Shown piece after piece: positions 16,167 to 22,805 of a DNA stretch of 64,000 bases. The notes under the pieces are model-generated. The model saw nothing but the letters and a program-made list of their open reading frames with translations. It was not told the DNA's origin and did no database searches. The position numbers were made by a program, and so were the translations under genes. Within the stretch, counting starts at the first letter, position 1; every line of letters starts with the position of its first letter. Source of the DNA: a virus (Duplodnaviria; Caudoviricetes); the IMG/VR virus record IMGVR_UViG_3300025016_000004. One strand, written 5' to 3'.

Positions 16167-16525
16167 TGAAAGTTAGTTTTGATTTTGATAGTACGCTATC
16201 AACACCTTTAATTCAAAGGTTGGCTAAACGTCATATTAAATATGGTGACGAAGTTCATATTACCACCACTAGGCAACATGAAGATGATAGTCTAGGGTTT
16301 ACAAATGAGTATTTATATAAAGTGGCCAATAGATTAGGGATTAAAAAAGAAAATATACACTTTACCAAATTTCAAGATAAAGTTCATTTTCTTAAAACAT
16401 TCGATATGCATTATGATGATGATGAGCATGAAATCGATTTAATCACAAGGTCAGACCTACCATGCTTAGGTATTCTTATAAATTATAAGAATTATTACCT
16501 TGATAATGAGGAAGTTAAAAAATAA
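16166..16525 (+). CDS. HAD-superfamily phosphatase-like protein
   Basis: SFDFDSTL motif I, HYDDD motif IV. Confidence 0.75.
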   Translation: MKVSFDFDSTLSTPLIQRLAKRHIKYGDEVHITTTRQHEDDSLGFTNEYLYKVANRLGIKKENIHFTKFQDKVHFLKTFDMHYDDDEHEIDLITRSDLPCLGILINYKNYYLDNEEVKK

Positions 16526-16666
16526 TTTAAAAAAAAGTATAAAAAAACTTGTTTTTTATTTAAACAATTACTATATTTGCACATATATATTAACAAGAGA
16601 TAGGATAATACATCTGGACAAACCCAAATGGGAAAGGATTGAATCTGAACAGTCTCTTAAATAAAA

Positions 16667-16750
16667 ATGAAAATGAAAACTTTAGTAACTTTATTATCTT
16701 TATGTCTGTTGGTCGTGTGTACTGACACATCGAGTTATGTAATTACTTAA
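16667..16750 (+). promoter_or_regulatory. Leader peptide A (MKMKTLVTLLSLCLLVVCTDTSSYVIT) of tRNA-operon attenuator
   Basis: Leu/Val/Cys-rich uORF between promoter (16572) and terminator; CATCGAG in the uORF is complementary to the terminator 5' arm. Confidence 0.85.
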
Positions 16751-16782
16751 AGGATTTATTTATATATTTTTTAAATTGTTAT

Positions 16783-16814
16783 AAAAGCTCGATGTTAACG
16801 CATCGAGCTTTTTT
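16783..16814 (+). terminator. Attenuator terminator A
   Basis: AAAAGCTCGATG-TTAACG-CATCGAGCTTTTTT, 2 nt before tRNA-Cys. Confidence 0.9.
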
Positions 16815-16816
16815 AT

Positions 16817-16901
16817 GCACTAGTGCTCCGAGTGGTCGAAGGGGGTGGTCTGCAAAACCGCCAGAGAAATCTCAACGTTGGTTCGAATCCAACCTAGTGC
16901 T
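16817..16901 (+). tRNA. tRNA-Cys(GCA), extended variable arm
   Basis: GCACTAG/CTAGTGC acceptor, loop CTGCAAA, U73. Confidence 0.9.
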
Positions 16902-16913
16902 CAAAATAAAAAT

Positions 16914-16999
16914 GCGGCCATAGTTCAGTAGGTCAAGAGCACCACCCTTACAAGGTGGGGGCGAATAGTATAACGGGGGTTCGAATCCCTCTGGCCGCA
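16914..16999 (+). tRNA. tRNA-Val(TAC), extended variable region
   Basis: GCGGCCA/TGGCCGC, loop CTTACAA, TTCGAAT. Confidence 0.88.
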
Positions 17000-17051
17000 C
17001 AACAATTGTGAGGCCATCTGTTATGTTGCAACATAAAATGATGGTCTGAAT

Positions 17052-17198
17052 ATCTAAATGAGCGTATGGTGAAATTGGTAGCCACGGGGACCTAACCGTC
17101 TTAATGACTAGCCGCAGACTTGCCATCTGGGTTGAAGGGTGAACCCTCTGTTATAGGCATATACGTATAGGTTCGAATCCTATTGCAGTTATTTAGAT
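17052..17198 (+). ncRNA. tRNA-like RNA with expanded central domain
   Basis: Leu-type D arm and T arm (ATAGG-TTCGAAT-CCTAT) flank ~85 nt of hairpins; closing ATCTAAAT/ATTTAGAT. Confidence 0.5.
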
Positions 17199-17204
17199 GA
17201 TAAT

Positions 17205-17290
17205 GGGGATGTGGTGGAATTGGTAGACACGCTGGTTTTAAGCATCAGTGCCTCGAAAGGGGCGTGTGGGTTCGACTCCCACCATCCCCA
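17205..17290 (+). tRNA. tRNA-Leu(TAA)
   Basis: GGGGATG/CATCCCC, loop TTTAAGC, long variable arm. Confidence 0.93.
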
Positions 17291-17295
17291 CAATT

Positions 17296-17369
17296 GGCCC
17301 CATAGCTCAGTGGTTTAGAGCGTCTCTTTTACACGGAGAAGGTCTTAGGTTCGATTCCTAATGGGGCTA
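17296..17369 (+). tRNA. tRNA-Val(TAC)
   Basis: GGCCCCA/TGGGGCT, loop TTTACAC. Confidence 0.92.
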
Positions 17370-17533
17370 CATGAAAAATTGGAATAAAATAATAGCACCA
17401 AAAGTTGAAATGTCTATGAATGAATTGGTTAAAACAAAGTCATCAAATATAGAAGGTTATTTTGAAATAATAGAAAAATTAACATGTAGTAAAATAATAA
17501 AAAACGATAATAATATATCAATTTTTATGTAAG

Positions 17534-17610
17534 CACCCCCATGGTGCACGTTGGAATGCACAACAGGTTTAAGCCCTGTCGTTTCGTGGGTTCGATTCCC
17601 ACTGGGGTAC
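17534..17610 (+). tRNA. Atypical tRNA-Leu(TAA) with short variable loop and imperfect acceptor
   Basis: ACAGG-TTTAAGC-CCTGT; GTGGG-TTCGATT-CCCAC. Confidence 0.6.
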
Positions 17611-17622
17611 AAAATTAAAATT

Positions 17623-17823
17623 ATGGAAATTAGAATAACAAAAACTCCGTATTCAATATTTAAAGATGTTCCAAAAATTAACTATTTTTGGGTATATAGA
17701 AAATATAAATATGTGAAAGGGTTTCGTTTTAGGTTTTTTGGTTATAATTTTAACGTAACTGAAAATTTTGCAACATATAAATTAATCAATAAGTTTAAAA
17801 ACAATGAAAACGCATACAATTGA
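17623..17823 (+). CDS. Hypothetical protein
   Basis: ATG downstream of the tRNA; upstream part of the listed ORF overlaps the tRNA. Confidence 0.55.
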   Translation: MEIRITKTPYSIFKDVPKINYFWVYRKYKYVKGFRFRFFGYNFNVTENFATYKLINKFKNNENAYN

Positions 17824-17950
17824 AGTTTCGGAAGTTGACATGAAAGGTTCTAAATATGAAATTAGTGAATGGCATAAACGAGTTGATGTTGTTAGGTGGG
17901 AACATGACTATGAAGATAAAATATATAGAATTACAATTAGAATAAAATAA

Positions 17951-18228
17951 CCCTCTATGCTGTACGTTGGAATTCAGCGTGGCTTTTATTATTATTAAAC
18001 TGCCCTTATGAGCAAAATGGCAAAGCTTGCTGGTTTAGACCCAGTGGAAAACATAAGAAACGTTCTCAGTTCGACTCTGAGTAAGGGTACAATCCGAAGT
18101 ATTAATTTTAAAGTAAAAATAATTTAATTTTTCCTAACTGTTACGGATAACGCAATTAGAAAATGGATTAAAAGTTCTTTAAGTAAGTAGACCCCACGAT
18201 TTCGTCAGTTCGATTCTGACTAGAGGGA
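17951..18228 (+). pseudogene. Split tRNA-Leu(TAG): 5' half 17951-17985, 3' half 18188-18228
   Basis: CCCTCTA/TAGAGGG acceptor and GTGG/CCAC anticodon stem reunite across a ~200-nt insert. Confidence 0.75.
18002..18089 (+). tRNA. tRNA-Leu(TAG)
   Basis: GCCCTTA/TAAGGGT, loop TTTAGAC, long variable arm. Confidence 0.88.
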
Positions 18229-18261
18229 CTTTGGAACTTTTGTACCTTTCTACATATTTAT

Positions 18262-18308
18262 ATTTTGGAGCGTAAAACCCATTGGTCTTTAGCTAATGGG
18301 TAGTTCAC
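18262..18308 (+). mobile_element. 47-bp minimal IS605-derived element
   Basis: TTTAT|ATTTTGGAGCGTAAAACCCATT..AATGGGTAGTTCAC: left and right ends share one hairpin. Confidence 0.75.
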
Positions 18309-18578
18309 TGAAAATCTACACGCAATGGCCAAAGATTTAAACATCAAACGATGTTGATTCCATAAGAATCACTATGATATACCAAAAAAACGTATTGAAG
18401 AAATTACCAAATAATGCACATTGGTATCCCCTAGAGATATTCATAAAATAATACATAATCTATAATACTGGTATTTAGTCGAATAAGTTTTGTAGCTAAA
18501 ATAATAACAATTATTTTAGCTAAACTATTGATTAATACTATTTATTGAATATATTAGGTATATAAAATAATTAATATT

Positions 18579-18773
18579 ATGACACAAACAGAAAAAGCTG
18601 AAAGATTTGAAAGCTTAACAAGAGAAAGTGATGTTATCCAAAGGGAGATATCAAAATTACAATCAGCAAATGCTGGTATTAACACAACATCCGAAGAATA
18701 CGATAATAAACTTAATCATTTAAGACATAGGTTATCAATTTTAGAACAAGAGATGGTAAAATTATTTATATGA
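18579..18773 (+). CDS. Hypothetical coiled-coil protein
   Basis: ORF track. Confidence 0.65.
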   Translation: MTQTEKAERFESLTRESDVIQREISKLQSANAGINTTSEEYDNKLNHLRHRLSILEQEMVKLFI

Positions 18774-19084
18774 ATCTAAATGAAAATTTAAACGAAGAAT
18801 TAGTTGAAGCATTAAAAAATATCTACCCAATTAGAGAAAATCTAAGGAAGGAGTTGTTAAAAACTTATGATGAAGAATTATTAGATAAATTAAATGCTTT
18901 GAATAAAATGATTGAGAATGCTGAAATTTTAATCAACAAATCTCAAGATGTTAAAAAGTTTTATGCTGAACAATACCCTGATTATGTCGATGAAAACAAT
19001 CATATCAACGAAATAGGTATAAATAGAATAAGCATTTTGAAAAAAAAATGGAAAAAATTAGGCTATCTAAAAAAGAATTCATAA
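18770..19084 (+). CDS. Hypothetical protein
   Basis: ATGA overlap with the upstream gene. Confidence 0.65.
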   Translation: MNLNENLNEELVEALKNIYPIRENLRKELLKTYDEELLDKLNALNKMIENAEILINKSQDVKKFYAEQYPDYVDENNHINEIGINRISILKKKWKKLGYLKKNS

Positions 19085-19110
19085 ATTAGCCGAATTAAAA
19101 TTAGAAAAAC

Positions 19111-19560
19111 ATGAAAAAAACAGCCCTACTTGTATTATTAATGTTGACATTAACCTTTAGTTTTGGACAAACCAATGGGTCAGTAATTATGAACGATTCA
19201 CTTATTGTTCAATATCTTGAGGAATTCGTTGACGAAGCCGCCCAAAATGGCTACGATATTCAAGAACAATTATTAAGTAAAGTTAGTTATATACTAATAG
19301 CAAAAGAGGATAAGCAAATTGAAGGTTTATCTGAAATTGATTTGAATAACAAATTAATCTTATTGGACCCCAAAGTTCGTTTAGATAGATTAATATTAAA
19401 AGCAAGGCTATATAGAGAGTTATGTCACGCTTTAGGTGTACCATATGACACTGGTAGTGTTATGATGGATAGGGTTAAAGAAAAAGGTTTTTCTTATGTG
19501 GCATTTGATGATTCTGAAATACTTAGCATTGAATTAGGTAAAGTTCTGAAATTAATTTAA
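19111..19560 (+). CDS. Secreted protein with degenerate zincin-like motif
   Basis: Signal peptide MKKTALLVLL..; RELCHALG in place of HExxH. Confidence 0.6.
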   Translation: MKKTALLVLLMLTLTFSFGQTNGSVIMNDSLIVQYLEEFVDEAAQNGYDIQEQLLSKVSYILIAKEDKQIEGLSEIDLNNKLILLDPKVRLDRLILKARLYRELCHALGVPYDTGSVMMDRVKEKGFSYVAFDDSEILSIELGKVLKLI

Positions 19561-19708
19561 AAAATCAAGGTTTTAATTAATTGAAAATCAAATAATTTAA
19601 AAATAATTTAAAAATAATTGCAAAAAAATTTGTTTTATATTGAAACATTTACTATATTTGCACTATATATTAATAACGGTATTAATAAAGTACCACAAAA
19701 TAAAAGTA

Positions 19709-19804
19709 ATGAGAAACTTAATTAACATATTTGAAAACGAATTTTTCGCAGCCGAGGCAGATTTTAGCTTGGGTAGGATGAGAATTGTCAAAAATGAAAG
19801 TTAA
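19709..19804 (+). promoter_or_regulatory. Leader peptide B (MRNLINIFENEFFAAEADFSLGRMRIVKNES) of tRNA-operon attenuator
   Basis: F/E/A/D block; GGATGAGA (19776-19783) is complementary to the terminator 5' arm; promoter at 19653. Confidence 0.88.
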
Positions 19805-19835
19805 GTTATTTAAAAAATAATAAAAACAATAAGAC

Positions 19836-19869
19836 AAAATCTCATCCAAATCGGATGAGATTTTTTTTT
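19836..19869 (+). terminator. Attenuator terminator B
   Basis: AAAATCTCATCC-AAATC-GGATGAGATTTTTTTTT, 9 nt before tRNA-Asp. Confidence 0.9.
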
Positions 19870-19878
19870 GTTATAAAC

Positions 19879-19951
19879 GGATGTGAGGTGTTGTAGGTAA
19901 CATGCTTGACTGTCACTCAAGCGATTGCGGGTTCGACCCCCGTGACATCCG
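19879..19951 (+). tRNA. tRNA-Asp(GTC)
   Basis: CTTGA-CTGTCAC-TCAAG, G73. Confidence 0.9.
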
Positions 19952-20036
19952 CAAAATTAAATTTGATTATCATGGGATAAATAAAGAAGTGATTAAGAAT
20001 TTCCTACTTAATCGAGATGAAACTGGAAGAGAGATA

Positions 20037-20294
20037 ATGTTCTATCCAGAAACAGGAAAAAAGTATTATATTGAATGGATAGGTGATGGTTATAGTAAAT
20101 GGGGAGATTTCGACCCAGTAACTAAAAAATTCACTGGTAATTATGGAACTAAATATAGAGGTTCAGTAACACCTAAAGAATCTGTAATCACTAAAGAGAA
20201 TGGATTCAATGATATTCATGAAGGTAAAGGTTCAGCGTATGAACACGTAAATTGGTTGCATAACCAATGGAAAAAAGAAAATGGTTATGGGTAA
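20037..20294 (+). CDS. Hypothetical protein (start uncertain)
   Basis: The upstream part of the listed ORF overlaps tRNA-Asp. Confidence 0.5.
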   Translation: MFYPETGKKYYIEWIGDGYSKWGDFDPVTKKFTGNYGTKYRGSVTPKESVITKENGFNDIHEGKGSAYEHVNWLHNQWKKENGYG

Positions 20295-20457
20295 GATTGA
20301 TAAAAAGAGAAATAGATTAATTGAGAGAATCAAAATGTTAGAAGATGAATTAACTTTATCTTTAACTAAAAAAACCTCTAATACTGTGGAAATTAATGTA
20401 CCACTTCAACAAAGAAAGATTCAGGAGTTGAAAGAACAATTAAGAGGGTTAATGTAA
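20287..20457 (+). CDS. Small hypothetical protein
   Basis: MGKIDKKRNRLIERIKMLEDEL.. read from sequence. Confidence 0.55.
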   Translation: MGKIDKKRNRLIERIKMLEDELTLSLTKKTSNTVEINVPLQQRKIQELKEQLRGLM

Positions 20458-20463
20458 CCCTCA

Positions 20464-20554
20464 AACAGTACCAGCGCATAACGGTTGGTGTACCTGACTG
20501 TCACTCAGGTTTGGTTTATCCATGTAGCGGGTTCGACTCCCGTTGTAGTTGCCA
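20464..20554 (+). tRNA. tRNA-Asp(GTC), long variable region, weak acceptor, encoded CCA
   Basis: CCTGA-CTGTCAC-TCAGG; GCGGG-TTCGACT-CCCGT. Confidence 0.7.
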
Positions 20555-20615
20555 AAAATAAAACAAAGAATCATTGTTTTAACCCTTGTCGGGGAGGTTT
20601 TTAAATGGTTCATAA

Positions 20616-20686
20616 GGGGACTTCGAATAATGGTAGTTCGTATGGTTGAAGCCCATAAGGTAAGAGTTCGACTCTCTTAGTTCCCA
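20616..20686 (+). tRNA. tRNA-Phe(GAA)
   Basis: GGGGACT/AGTTCCC, loop TTGAAGC. Confidence 0.85.
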
Positions 20687-20693
20687 CAAATTT

Positions 20694-20767
20694 GCTGCCG
20701 TAGTATAGCGGTCAAGTACACAAGGCTTTCAACCTTGCAGACGCCAGTTCGAATCTGGTCGGCAGTA
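20694..20767 (+). tRNA. tRNA-Glu(TTC)
   Basis: GCTGCCG/CGGCAGT, loop CTTTCAA. Confidence 0.92.
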
Positions 20768-20870
20768 CAAATAATAATGGTCGGGTAGAGCATAATAAGT
20801 TATTTGACATTTTGGTAGAATTTATTTTTTAAAAAATGTGTCTTTTAATAAAAACTTCATATTTATTAAT

Positions 20871-21362
20871 ATGAGTAGAGACGAAAAGATTATAGAAATG
20901 TATAACGCTGGTGAAACAGCCACAGTTATATCAAAAGAATTAAAAATAGGTAGGAAAACAGTTTATAGAACTTTAGATAAGTTTAATATAACATTACATA
21001 AAAATAAACCTAATAATTGTCTAGTGTGTGGTAAGACATCTAAAAAGAAGTTATGTGGTACGTGTAACACTAATCTAAGGAGATATAGAGTCAAGAAATT
21101 AGCTGTTGAATATCTAGGTGGTGAATGTAAAAGATGTGGTTGGGAGGGTGATGTATCAGGATTTGATTTTCATCATAAAGACCCAAATCAAAAAGATTTT
21201 AATCCAAGTGGTTTAAACTTGGCTAATAAATCTTGGGAAAGGGGTAAAGAAGAATTGGATAAGTGTGAATTATTATGTGCACTGTGTCACAGATTAGAAC
21301 ATAGCACTTATGGGATTTTAGAAAAAATAAATTTAGAGTATAAAGGTAAAACCTTTCTATAA
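20871..21362 (+). CDS. HTH plus HNH endonuclease
   Basis: C..C zinc fingers, FDFHH..KCELLCALCHRLEH; stop abuts tRNA-Phe. Confidence 0.88.
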   Translation: MSRDEKIIEMYNAGETATVISKELKIGRKTVYRTLDKFNITLHKNKPNNCLVCGKTSKKKLCGTCNTNLRRYRVKKLAVEYLGGECKRCGWEGDVSGFDFHHKDPNQKDFNPSGLNLANKSWERGKEELDKCELLCALCHRLEHSTYGILEKINLEYKGKTFL

Positions 21363-21435
21363 GGCTTGGTAACTCAGTTGGTAGAGTAGTGGACTGAAAA
21401 TCCATATGTCACTGGTTCGATTCCAGTTCAAGCCA
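21363..21435 (+). tRNA. tRNA-Phe(GAA)
   Basis: GGCTTGG/TCAAGCC, loop CTGAAAA. Confidence 0.93.
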
Positions 21436-21585
21436 CTATACCAAAAAGTTATTGAAGAACCATGTGTCGTTGGTTCGATTCCAACTCCGACCACAAATTG
21501 TGATAGTTAATCCTCTTATCTATGAAGTCTTAGGTAATGAAACTAGTCTCGGTAGACAATGTGCACATTGATTCTACCCAAATAT

Positions 21586-21657
21586 GGCCCATTCGTCTAA
21601 TGGTTAGGACGACAGGTTTTCGACCTGTAAACGAGAGTTCGACTCTCTCATGGGCTA
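21586..21657 (+). tRNA. tRNA-Glu(TTC)
   Basis: GGCCCAT/ATGGGCT, loop TTTTCGA. Confidence 0.92.
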
Positions 21658-21689
21658 CAAGTTTGCAAACTAAGGTTATTAATTTCCTT

Positions 21690-21755
21690 GGGGGTATCGT
21701 CTAACTGGTTAGGATAGCTATTGGTAAGATATGGGTTCGAGTCCCATTGTTTCCA
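21690..21755 (+). pseudogene. Degenerate tRNA lacking anticodon arm
   Basis: D arm GTCTAACTGGTTAGGAT and T arm ATGGG-TTCGAGT-CCCAT present. Confidence 0.5.
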
Positions 21756-21767
21756 AAAAATTAATAT

Positions 21768-21842
21768 GGTTTATCGTCTAAATGGCAAAAGATACTGTGC
21801 GTGTCAGTACAGAGATGGAGGTTCGAGCCCTCCGAAAACCGC
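21768..21842 (+). tRNA. tRNA-like gene, identity uncertain (8-nt anticodon loop containing GTC/GTG)
   Basis: GGAGG-TTCGAGC-CCTCC T arm; GGTTT/AAACC acceptor. Confidence 0.45.
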
Positions 21843-21931
21843 AATATGGGGGGCACATGTACCAAGGCAAGGCGTTGGACATTTACCTAAACTTATGTGG
21901 TCGTTTCGATTATTTTGTGATATTTATTAAT

Positions 21932-22573
21932 ATGAAAGAATGTCCAAAGTGTGGTAATAACCACCATAAAAAGGGTAAGTTTTGTTCTAGGTCTTGTGCT
22001 AATAGTAGAACTTGGTCCAAAGAAGATAAAAGTAAAAAATCTGAAATCGCTAAAAAATCTGAAAAAGTTTTATTGGCCAATCGTGACCCTGAAAGAAGAA
22101 AGAATCTCTCAATATCAGCAAAAGCCCAAGCAAAAGTTGGTAACATTAATTGGAGTAAATTACATACTAAAGATGTTATTAACAAGGCCTTAAAAACTAA
22201 AAAGCTTAAAAGGGAACTATGGTTAGATTCATTTGATAGGAGTGATAAAATTGAATACCGTAAAGCTTGTAAATTTAAATTTAGTCTTAATTCATACCCA
22301 GATAAATTTGATTTTTGGTTGATTGAAGAGTATGGCTGGTATAAAGCTAAAAATATGGGTGACAATCCAAATGGGATAAGTAGAGACCATATGTACTCAA
22401 TTAGTGAAGGATTTAAAAATGGTGTTGACCCGTATTATATTAGTCACCCAGCCAATTGTAAATTAATGAGGCATGGTGAAAATAATAAAAAAGATGGTAA
22501 AAGTAGTATTAATCTAGAAGATTTAATAAAAAAAGTTAATAAATGGGATAATAAATATGGGCCGTTAGCATAA
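21932..22573 (+). CDS. Zn-finger plus HNH endonuclease
   Basis: CPKC..FCSRSC; SRDH..HPANC..H.EN; 3' end overlaps tRNA-Ala. Confidence 0.82.
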   Translation: MKECPKCGNNHHKKGKFCSRSCANSRTWSKEDKSKKSEIAKKSEKVLLANRDPERRKNLSISAKAQAKVGNINWSKLHTKDVINKALKTKKLKRELWLDSFDRSDKIEYRKACKFKFSLNSYPDKFDFWLIEEYGWYKAKNMGDNPNGISRDHMYSISEGFKNGVDPYYISHPANCKLMRHGENNKKDGKSSINLEDLIKKVNKWDNKYGPLA

Positions 22574-22631
22574 ATGGCAAATGCTCTTCATTTGCAATGA
22601 GGAAGATTGGGTTCGAATCCCAGCGTGTCCA
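22559..22631 (+). tRNA. tRNA-Ala(TGC)
   Basis: CTTCA-TTTGCAA-TGAGG; G3-U70; bulged acceptor. Confidence 0.82.
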
Positions 22632-22805
22632 CAATGTCCGAGAGAAGGATTCGATTTCCTTTGTCTCCACAAACATTCTTTACTTATGAATATAATTTAT
22701 TATATTATATTTATGAGTAAGGATTATCGAAAATTATACGAAACTACCCACGGTGAACTACCCACACACTAAAAAGATGTGTGGGCTTCCTGCACAACGC
22801 ACAGC

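What the first reader, a model, noticed from the sequence alone, without database searches (positions are those of the whole stretch)
16549..16814. Attenuator A: Leu/Val/Cys leader upstream of the Cys-Val-Leu cluster
Promoter -7 box at 16572 and uORF at 16667-16750, with 4 TTA, CTG, TTG, GTA/GTC/GTG and 2 TGT codons. CATCGAG (16728-16734) can pair with CTCGATG of the terminator 5' arm. The terminator ends 2 nt before tRNA-Cys. A structured 5' segment (AAGAGA..TCTCTT, 16594-16658) precedes the uORF and has no assigned role.
Basis: partly seen in the sequence, partly recalled or inferred. Interest (0 to 1): 0.8.

Follow-up and report, generated by a model that had tools for sequence, protein, structure and literature searches.

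The report
Leader-peptide attenuator gating phage tRNA genes
In this uncultured giant marine phage, a tiny translated test gene rich in leucine, valine and cysteine codons is wired to a switchable transcription stop directly in front of the phage's Cys, Val and Leu tRNA genes. The phage therefore probably makes these tRNAs only when ribosomes read those codons slowly, and I found no paper describing this control for tRNA genes.

Summary

**Layout.** A Bacteroidetes-type promoter (16549-16579) drives a 5' stem-loop. A 27-codon ORF follows (16667-16750; conserved start 16673). Next comes an intrinsic terminator (16783-16814), which ends 2 nt before tRNA-Cys.

**Codon match.** Twelve of 24 codons are Leu, Val or Cys, against a background of 0.15. 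This matches the Cys/Val/Leu tRNA cluster behind it.

**Alternative folds.** The Leu/Val/Cys codon run pairs with an in-ORF segment (fold 1:2). That segment also pairs with the terminator's 5' arm (fold 2:3, -19.3 kcal/mol). The terminator itself is -17.3 kcal/mol.

**Conservation.** Eight related metagenomic phages keep the whole unit. One relative swapped the terminator sequence and the in-ORF complement together. Indels are in frame, and synonymous change is suppressed (4.7% against 41% in the neighbouring gene).

**Sister units.** Units at 19.6 kb and 32.5 kb of this window match their own tRNA sets.

**Limits.** There is no experimental evidence. The usable RNA data were contigs only.

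**Novelty.** I found no paper on such control of tRNA genes. This scan has already noted the same design in this genome and in many others.

**5' stem-loop.** It is real and conserved. Its role is unknown.

The parts
16549..16579 (+). Bacteroidetes-type promoter: TTG (-33), then TATATTTG (-7). The transcription start is inferred near 16586.
   Evidence: One search shows the sequence. Near-identical ~60-nt copies lie at 19630-19660 and 32478-32508, and another copy of the -7 box is at 30878. The -7 motif with at most 1 mismatch occurs 12 times against 3.0 expected. It is the only full -33/-7 match between 16500 and 19630 besides site B. Promoter function is inferred, not tested.
16595..16658 (+). 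5' structured element. The outer stem is AAGAGAU/GUCUCUU, with a variable interior of two GGAU..AUCU repeats and an apical hairpin. Role unknown.
   Evidence: The self-fold is -10 kcal/mol. The outer stem is kept in 9 of 9 variants, with U.G changing to C-G and A-U to G.U. The apical hairpin changes on both sides (CCC/GGG, GUC/GAC, GUU/AAC). L020 keeps only the stem. Its pairing with the ORF is no better than shuffles.
16667..16750 (+). Leader ORF of 27 codons. The conserved start is the second ATG at 16673. The stop is TAA at 16748-16750. An A-rich stretch precedes it.
   Evidence: The frame is open in all 9 variants (25-31 codons), and all indels are multiples of 3. It belongs to no protein family; there are only weak matches to signal-peptide-like stretches.
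16682..16720 (+). Regulatory codon run, also called region 1. Eleven of 13 codons are Leu, Val or Cys: TTA GTA . TTA TTA . TTA TGT CTG TTG GTC GTG TGT.
   Evidence: One search gives the composition statistics. Only 4.7% of identical-residue codons differ between variants, against 41% in the neighbouring gene. The rare codons CTG (2% of Leu) and GTC (6% of Val) are kept. The run pairs with 16719-16752 as helix 1:2, -14.9 kcal/mol.
16727..16736 (+). Region 2, the 5' strand of the antiterminator (ACATCGAGTT) inside the ORF. It can pair either with region 1 or with the terminator's 5' arm.
   Evidence: The duplex with 16785-16795 is -14.0 kcal/mol, reached by 0 of 1000 shuffles. It sits at the same ORF position in all 9 variants. 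Three pairs changed on both sides in L009. A modelled ribosome on the Leu/Val/Cys codons leaves this pairing at P about 0.95; a ribosome further on lowers it to 0.16-0.6.
16738..16782 (+). AU-rich spacer with a nested hairpin inside the antiterminator loop.
   Evidence: The sequence is poorly conserved among relatives.
16783..16814 (+). Intrinsic terminator, regions 3 and 4. A 13-bp stem with loop TAAC and a run of six T. It ends 2 nt before tRNA-Cys.
   Evidence: The fold is -17.3 kcal/mol. It is present in all 9 variants at -14.6 to -18.6 kcal/mol, and 3 pairs changed on both sides. The simple scan did not list it.
16817..18090 (+). The regulated tRNA cluster: Cys(GCA), Val(UAC), an uncalled element, Leu(UAA), Val(UAC), Leu(UAA), Leu(UAG), with small ORFs between them.
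   Evidence: Relatives keep a Cys/Val/Leu cluster here; L011 adds a tRNA-Pro.

Best explanation
This is a ribosome-mediated (leader-peptide) transcription attenuator that gates the phage's Cys-Val-Leu tRNA operon.

Host RNA polymerase starts at the promoter (16549-16579) and transcribes a 5' stem-loop and the leader ORF. What happens next depends on the ribosome:

- **Ribosome stalls.** If it stalls on the Leu/Val/Cys codon run (16682-16720) because cognate aminoacyl-tRNA is scarce, it masks region 1. Region 2 (16727-16736) is then free to pair with the terminator's 5' arm (16785-16795) as that arm emerges. The terminator cannot form, and the polymerase runs on into tRNA-Cys and the rest of the cluster.
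- **Ribosome reads through.** If it reads smoothly, it covers region 2 on its way to the stop codon at 16748. The terminator forms and transcription ends in the U-run, 2 nt before the first tRNA.
- **No ribosome.** The 1:2 hairpin forms first, and that also favours termination.

The result is negative feedback: the phage's own tRNAs relieve the stall and shut the operon down.

Shown here: the sequence architecture, its statistics, the alternative folds, and their conservation and covariation. Inferred: promoter use, translation of the ORF, termination, and the response to tRNA supply.
For: 1. **Architecture.** The order is promoter, ORF, terminator, tRNA, with only 2 nt between the T-run and tRNA-Cys. 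No other full promoter lies inside the cluster.
2. **Composition.** Leu/Val/Cys share is 12/24 against 0.15, P = 6e-5, reached by 1 of 304 small ORFs. Eleven of the 12 codons are readable by the downstream anticodons under standard wobble (plus established wobble rules).
3. **Within-window replication.** The units at 19.6 kb and 32.5 kb carry leaders that each match their own tRNA set best, giving a diagonal 3x3 matrix. The terminator arms of A and B pair best with their own ORFs.
4. **Folds.** Helix 1:2 is -14.9, 2:3 is -19.3 and 3:4 is -17.3 kcal/mol. The lowest-energy fold of the growing transcript goes from 1:2, to 2:3 at 16796, to 1:2 plus 3:4 at 16812. Ribosome-mask modelling behaves as the model requires.
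5. **Conservation.** Nine variants were compared; their neighbouring protein is 59-92% identical to the window's in the six where it was compared. The ORF is always open with in-frame indels. Synonymous differences are 4.7% in the first 15 codons against 41% in the neighbouring gene.
6. **Covariation.** The antiterminator is significant in every variant (P <= 0.016). L009 changed the terminator (CCCAGCT/AGCTGGG) and the in-ORF segment (AGTTGGG) together. The terminator itself has three pairs changed on both sides.
7. **Stop codon moves.** The stop position differs between variants (25-31 codons), and the C-terminal residues vary. That is expected for a leader, not for a functional peptide.
8. 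**A distant phage.** L029 has an Ile/His/Trp-rich leader plus terminator before its Trp, Met, Ile and His tRNAs.
9. **Precedent.** Leader-peptide attenuators are known to respond to tRNA gene dose. The pheA attenuator is derepressed 6-7 fold when one of the two tRNA-Phe genes is lost (PMC3082878).
Against: - There is no experimental evidence of any kind.
- The only RNA-library data were two low-depth contig sets. They cannot show ends or expression levels.
- Half of the leader codons (Thr, Ser, Lys, Asp, Tyr, Ile) have no cognate tRNA in this cluster.
- L011 has a tRNA-Pro in the cluster but no Pro codon in its leader. L009 has two ATA (Ile) codons but no Ile tRNA was called.
- The peptide looks like a signal peptide, so a Leu/Val-rich composition alone is not unusual.
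- The strongest covariation rests on one lineage event, in L009.
- At equilibrium without a ribosome, the window's nascent RNA prefers the antiterminator. Termination in the untranslated state therefore depends on folding kinetics.
- In six relatives the stop codon lies about 30 nt beyond region 2. A ribosome waiting at that stop would not mask region 2.
- The nearest cultured relative, Tenacibaculum phage pT24, has no such unit before its tRNAs.
Confidence: 0.75

Rival explanations
1. The ORF encodes a functional small hydrophobic or secreted peptide (signal-peptide- or lipoprotein-like). The hairpin is just that gene's ordinary terminator, and the tRNAs are made by leaky readthrough. On this reading the match between Leu/Val/Cys codons and the tRNAs is coincidence.
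For: MKTLVTLLSLCLLV resembles a signal peptide. There are weak hits to the N-terminal 19-20 positions of PHROG 22408 and to other signal-like stretches. The N-terminal residues are well conserved.
Against: - Conservation is at the nucleotide and codon level, not just the residue level: 4.7% synonymous differences against 41% in the neighbouring gene.
- The C-terminus and the stop position vary.
- LSLC is not a canonical lipobox (from my own knowledge of the lipobox consensus).
- The in-ORF segment co-varies with the terminator arm.
- The sister leaders B and C are hydrophilic yet also match their own tRNA sets.
- There is no promoter between the terminator and the tRNAs.
Confidence: 0.07
2. 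The leader is a structured RNA with a constitutive, partial terminator or a processing or stabilising hairpin. It sets a fixed tRNA level or an RNase entry site. The open frame is a by-product of RNA-structure constraints and is not translated as a sensor.
For: The nucleotide-level conservation and the extensive predicted pairing (helices 1:2, 2:3 and 3:4, plus the 5' element) could by themselves explain the suppressed synonymous change. No translation data exist.
Against: - The frame stays open in 9 of 9 variants, and every indel is a multiple of three.
- An ATG with an A-rich upstream stretch is kept in all variants.
- Substitutions within the codon run stay inside the Leu/Val/Cys set: TTA GTG became GTG TGT in the window, and TCT became TGT in L011.
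- Three independent units in this window show leader compositions that track their tRNA sets. A pure RNA-structure model does not predict that.
Confidence: 0.1
3. The unit is a working attenuator, but it reports amino-acid starvation or general translation capacity (for example after host shut-off) rather than the supply of specific tRNAs.
For: A stalled ribosome cannot tell a missing amino acid from a missing tRNA. Classical attenuators respond to both (PMC3082878). All the tRNA operons share one near-identical promoter, which suggests common control.
Against: Making more tRNA does not relieve amino-acid starvation, so the feedback would serve no purpose. Each unit's leader is written in the amino acids of its own tRNA set, which points to set-specific sensing. 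The retention of rare codons (CTG, GTC) fits sensing at the level of codon and anticodon.
Confidence: 0.08

Closest known systems
Multivalent leader-peptide attenuators of enterobacterial amino-acid operons (ilvGMEDA/ilvL for Ile-Leu-Val, ilvBN/ivbL for Val-Leu, leuL, thrL; the trpL model)
   Same: A short leader ORF holds a run of regulatory codons for several amino acids. The layout has four regions: 1:2, 2:3 and the 3:4 terminator followed by a U-run. The regulatory codons lie in region 1. The terminator sits directly before the regulated genes.
   Different: The regulated genes are tRNAs, not biosynthetic enzymes. The signal that would be relieved is therefore tRNA supply. The unit is phage-borne, has a Bacteroidetes-type promoter and no Shine-Dalgarno sequence, and includes Cys codons. 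There is no sequence homology: no Rfam leader family matched even at E <= 1.
pheMST attenuator (pheM leader before phenylalanyl-tRNA synthetase), together with the response of the pheA attenuator to tRNA-Phe gene dose
   Same: A leader-peptide attenuator controls, or responds to, a component of the decoding machinery for the same codons. Loss of one tRNA-Phe gene derepresses the pheA attenuator 6-7 fold (PMC3082878).
   Different: In those cases the product is a synthetase or a biosynthetic enzyme. Here it is the tRNAs themselves, for three amino acids at once. My knowledge of pheMST comes from memory and was not re-read here.
T-box riboswitches
   Same: They gate a terminator according to tRNA status, upstream of genes of the same amino-acid pathway.
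   Different: A T-box binds uncharged tRNA directly through a specifier loop and the T-box sequence, and needs no ORF. No T-box match was found. This unit instead has a conserved translated frame.
Sister units in the same phage (19621-19869 for Phe/Glu/Asp/Ala; 32470-32718 for Tyr/Thr/Lys/Gln/Pro/Gly; one more about 18 kb before the window) and the many units this scan has noted in other phages
   Same: They share the same promoter copy and the same order: leader ORF, in-ORF copy of the terminator's 3' arm, terminator, tRNA cluster.
   Different: Site A has the long structured 5' element and a hydrophobic leader. B and C have short 5' hairpins and hydrophilic leaders that start MRN.
tRNA clusters of cultured phages, for example Tenacibaculum phage pT24 (the nearest cultured relative) and phage T4
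   Same: They carry clustered phage tRNA genes behind a host-type promoter.
   Different: In pT24 the order is gene terminator, then promoter, then tRNA, with no leader ORF and no terminator in between. The T4 comparison rests on memory only. E. coli pheV, which I recalled as possibly attenuated, has no leader ORF upstream.

Membership tests
Ribosome-mediated (leader-peptide) transcription attenuators | A short ORF in the 5' leader, with clustered codons for the regulated amino acid(s) | tested here: met
   The ORF has 27 codons, and 11 of the 13 codons from 16682 to 20 are Leu, Val or Cys. The share is 12/24 against 0.15, P = 6e-5. It is open in all 9 variants.
Ribosome-mediated (leader-peptide) transcription attenuators | An intrinsic terminator between the leader ORF and the regulated genes | tested here: met
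   A 13-bp stem at -17.3 kcal/mol plus a run of six U at 16783-16814. It is conserved, with compensatory changes. Termination activity itself was not tested.
Ribosome-mediated (leader-peptide) transcription attenuators | A mutually exclusive antiterminator that uses the terminator's 5' arm | tested here: met
   16727-16736 pairs with 16785-16795 at -14.0 kcal/mol for the duplex (-19.3 with the nested hairpin). This was reached by 0 of 1000 shuffles. It co-varies in L009.
Ribosome-mediated (leader-peptide) transcription attenuators | An anti-antiterminator (1:2) whose 5' strand holds the regulatory codons | tested here: met
   16680-16714 pairs with 16719-16752 at -14.9 kcal/mol. It forms first in the growing transcript. 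78-89% of cells are paired across the 9 variants. Support is weaker than for 2:3, because most variation is on one side only.
Ribosome-mediated (leader-peptide) transcription attenuators | The regulated genes make or charge the amino acid that is sensed | tested here: not met
   The downstream genes are tRNAs (Cys, Val, Leu), not biosynthetic or synthetase genes. This is the respect in which the unit is a new variant.
Ribosome-mediated (leader-peptide) transcription attenuators | Readthrough responds to translation of the leader and to charged-tRNA supply | not testable with these tools
   Only RNA-library contigs were available, and they cannot show ends or levels.
Rfam leader families (Leu_leader, His_leader, Thr_leader, Trp_leader) | A match to the covariance model | tested here: not met
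   There was no match at the gathering score, nor at E <= 1, in 16400-22800.
T-box riboswitch | A specifier loop and the T-box sequence (Rfam model) | tested here: not met
   No match.

The most novel reading that the evidence does not exclude
The unit is one channel of a demand sensor for tRNA, not for amino acids. The phage's four attenuators divide the codon table among them, so each tRNA block is switched on only when its own codons are read slowly. That could happen when host tRNAs run down after host shut-off, or when host anticodon nucleases cut them. If so, this would be a self-limiting tRNA replacement and counter-defence circuit.
Probability: 0.35. Interest if true: 0.9.

Novelty: new variant of a known kind. 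Interest (0 to 1): 0.8.

Why it matters
Phage tRNA genes are usually discussed as constitutive cargo that fits codon usage or replaces tRNAs cut by host defences. How their expression is controlled is largely unknown.

A codon-matched leader peptide wired to a terminator would be the first described case of tRNA genes being controlled by the decoding speed of their own codons. That is a direct feedback loop between tRNA supply and tRNA synthesis.

It would extend the textbook trp-type mechanism to a new class of target, to phages, and to Bacteroidetes-type hosts. It would also give a simple, portable sensor of the availability of specific tRNAs.

The idea is directly testable with reporter fusions.

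Tried and rejected
- **Terminator scan.** It did not list the site-A terminator. The tool extends the stem through the A/T pairs, so too few T remain after the stem for its rule. It did list the equivalent hairpin of site B.
- **IMG/VR DNA pattern scans.** The scans for the promoter and for the 5' element found nothing.
- **Single-protein scans of IMG/VR.** Nothing found.
- **Profile scan.** It gave 9 distant loci. Only L029 was informative.
- **Other anchor homologues.** P0025, P0028, P0020 and P0011 lie in loci without the tRNA cluster. No DNA was available for P0008.
- **RNA evidence.** Only two RNA-library runs held small shares, and both are kept as contigs.
  - One 151-nt contig from an oligo-dT library covers 16670-16814, from ORF start to T-run, with 3 mismatches and 1 indel.
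  - This cannot show an RNA end or an expression level, so it gives no verdict on termination.
- **5' element pairing with the codon run.** I considered a 'region 0' that pairs with the codon run. The pairing is no better than shuffles (P 0.3-0.9 in all variants), so I rejected it.
- **E. coli pheV.** I recalled that this tRNA-Phe gene might have an attenuator. Its upstream region in MG1655 has no leader ORF or terminator, and it is transcribed with a 3-4 nt leader (PMC7049720). Rejected.
- **Protein families for the peptide.** Only weak matches to signal-peptide-like stretches.
- **Literature.** Six searches found no paper on leader-peptide attenuation of tRNA genes. The library lacks most subscription journals, so this is not proof of absence.

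Full report
**What the window is.** The DNA is about 30% G+C and carries 20 or more tRNA genes in three clusters, together with phage genes: an HNH endonuclease, PHROG families and a nucleotidyl transferase. No whole genome is held for it. Near-identical copies (99.98%) occur in many marine metagenome assemblies. A related IMG/VR contig is 360 kb long. The nearest cultured relatives are the jumbo Tenacibaculum phages pT24 and PTm1, at about 50% protein identity on one gene. The promoters are of the Bacteroidetes type (TTG, then TAnnTTTG). I recognise that consensus from my own knowledge.

**Check of the observation.**
- The -7 box is at 16572.
- The ORF spans 16667-16750 and holds TTA x4, TTG, CTG, GTA x2, GTC, GTG and TGT x2.
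- CATCGAG is at 16728-16734.
- The terminator has arms at 16783-16795 and 16800-16812 and a T-run at 16809-16814.
- tRNA-Cys starts at 16817.
- The 5' segment is closed by AAGAGAU/GUCUCUU (16595-16658).
- The simple terminator scan missed the hairpin only because its A/T stem extension consumes the T-run.

**More than chance.**
- Twelve of 24 codons are Leu, Val or Cys, against 0.15 in the window's long ORFs. Binomial P is 6e-5, and 1 of 304 small ORFs in all six frames reaches that share.
- The complement to the terminator's 5' arm inside the ORF gives -14.0 kcal/mol, reached by none of 1000 dinucleotide shuffles.
- The promoter is repeated almost letter for letter at 19.6 kb and 32.5 kb.
- There it is again followed by a small ORF, a terminator and a tRNA cluster.
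- In a 3x3 comparison each leader matches its own cluster best: A 12/24, B 9/30, C 18/31.
- The terminator arms of A and B pair best with their own ORFs.

**Folding.** There are three helices.
- Helix 1:2 pairs the Leu/Val/Cys codon run (16680-16714) with 16719-16752, at -14.9 kcal/mol.
- Helix 2:3 pairs 16727-16736 with 16785-16795, at -19.3 kcal/mol including a nested AU hairpin.
- Helix 3:4 is the terminator, at -17.3 kcal/mol.

As the transcript grows, the lowest-energy fold is 1:2 up to 16780. It becomes 2:3 once region 3 is out (16796), and 1:2 plus 3:4 once region 4 is out (16812).

I then masked a 28-nt ribosome footprint. With the ribosome on any Leu/Val/Cys codon up to GTC, the arm pairs with region 2 at P about 0.95. 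With the ribosome on codon ACT (16721) and onward to the stop, P drops to 0.16-0.6.

One caveat applies. At equilibrium without a ribosome, the window's nascent RNA also prefers 2:3. Termination in the untranslated state would therefore depend on 1:2 forming first.

**Relatives.** The neighbouring 119-residue protein has 54 homologues. Loci with conserved gene order, plus two IMG/VR hits, give nine distinct versions of the unit. All nine keep the same order: promoter, 5' stem, A-rich spacer, an ORF beginning MKTLVTLLSLCLLV or close to it, terminator, 2-4 nt, then a Cys/Val/Leu tRNA cluster.
- **Open frame.** The ORF is always open (25-31 codons), and its indels are multiples of three.
- **Synonymous change.** Among codons with the same residue, 41% differ between variants in the neighbouring gene. 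The figure is 12% in the ORF and 4.7% in its first 15 codons.
- **Rare codons.** CTG (2% of Leu codons) and GTC (6% of Val codons) are retained.
- **Substitutions.** Those in the codon run stay within the set: Leu-Val became Val-Cys in the window, and Ser became Cys in L011.
- **Antiterminator.** It is significant in every variant and always sits at ORF nucleotides 53-71.
- **Joint change.** L009 has a different terminator (CCCAGCT/AGCTGGG) and, at the same ORF position, AGTTGGG instead of CATCGAG.
- **Pair counts.** On the alignment the antiterminator has 91% of cells paired against 16-35% when slid, with three pairs changed on both sides. The terminator also has three such pairs.
- **A distant phage.** L029 has an Ile/His/Trp-rich leader with its own terminator complement before its Trp, Met, Ile and His tRNAs.
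- **A contrast.** pT24 has the promoter directly before its tRNAs.

**The 5' element.**
- The outer stem is kept in all nine variants, with one-sided changes.
- The apical hairpin changes on both sides: CCC/GGG, GUC/GAC, GUU/AAC, and a longer stem in L017.
- L020 keeps only the stem.
- Sites B and C have short hairpins at the same place.
- Its apparent complementarity to the codon run is no better than shuffles.
- It is a real, conserved 5'-proximal stem-loop. A stabilising or insulating role is only a guess.

**Mechanism.** The best reading is trp-type attenuation with a multivalent leader, applied to tRNA genes. Slow decoding of Leu, Val or Cys codons keeps the ribosome on region 1. Region 2 then captures region 3, and the polymerase reads into the tRNAs. 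Smooth decoding, or no translation, lets the terminator form.

Classical attenuators respond to tRNA gene dose as well as to amino acids (PMC3082878). The regulated products here are the cognate tRNAs. The loop therefore most plausibly balances tRNA supply against demand.

The rivals are less likely but are not excluded without experiments. They are a functional hydrophobic peptide, an untranslated structured leader with a fixed terminator, and a sensor of starvation or general translation.

**Comparison and novelty.** The unit works like ilvL, ivbL or leuL-type attenuators. It is not homologous to them, and it is not a T-box. It also fails the one family feature that concerns the kind of gene regulated.

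Six literature searches found no description of leader-peptide attenuation of tRNA genes. My recollection that E. coli pheV might be so controlled was checked and rejected.

Earlier notes of this scan describe the sister units of this genome and similar units in many other phage genomes. I re-tested sites B and C of this window myself. I did not test the notes on other genomes.

**Verdict.** It is experimentally untested. My confidence is about 0.75.

Noticed in passing
window 16817-16902 and 16914-17000: The first tRNA-Cys(GCA) is 86 nt and the first tRNA-Val(UAC) is 87 nt. Each carries a long extra (variable) arm, which is unusual for Cys and Val tRNAs. The Val insert (GGCGAATAGTATAACG-like) is conserved in relatives L007 and L016. 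A normal-length Val(UAC) lies at 17296-17370.
   Followed up: no
window 17001-17204: An uncalled element lies between tRNA-Val and tRNA-Leu, with a strong hairpin (17011-17047) and a tRNA-like T-loop (GGTTCGAATCC at 17170). A 178-nt contig from an RNA library matches 17005-17196 exactly but skips the 14 nt at 17157-17170, between two TATAGG repeats. This could be a strain indel or removal at the RNA level.
   Followed up: partly
window 30878-31884: A further copy of the promoter's -7 box (30878) is followed by about 1 kb with no long ORF and many GC-rich hairpins with tetraloops, and then by a tRNA (31885-31974). There was no Rfam match even at E <= 1, and the fold z-score is only -1.2. It may be a large non-coding RNA next to tRNAs.
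   Followed up: partly
L007 10591-10607, also L011, L015, L016, L017, L020: Six relatives extend the leader ORF by six codons (five in L017). They place its TGA stop inside a small conserved hairpin (TTTTCA-TTCG-TGAAAA). The window, L009 and L019 stop earlier at TAA and lack that hairpin. The leader therefore comes in two length classes.
   Followed up: partly
L029 3560-3990: A distant phage (anchor protein 32% identical) has a promoter and a leader ORF (MTTFTIHINKIKTHKWFIHLQRFLCIS). GAGGTTC inside the ORF complements the terminator arm GAACCTC, and the terminator lies before the Trp, Met, Ile, Ile and His tRNAs.
   Followed up: partly
window 17371-17532, 17551-17950, 20838-21362: Small ORFs and an HNH endonuclease gene are interleaved with duplicated tRNA genes (Val x2, Leu(UAA) x2, Asp x2, Phe x2, Glu x2). 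This looks like homing-endonuclease traffic within the tRNA clusters.
   Followed up: no
window 16520-16548, 19600-19629, 32445-32477: The three tRNA-operon promoters also share about 30 nt of A/T-rich sequence upstream of the -33 element (AAAAATAATTTAAAAATAATTGCAAAAAAA-like). It could be an UP-like element or a regulator site common to the tRNA operons.
   Followed up: no
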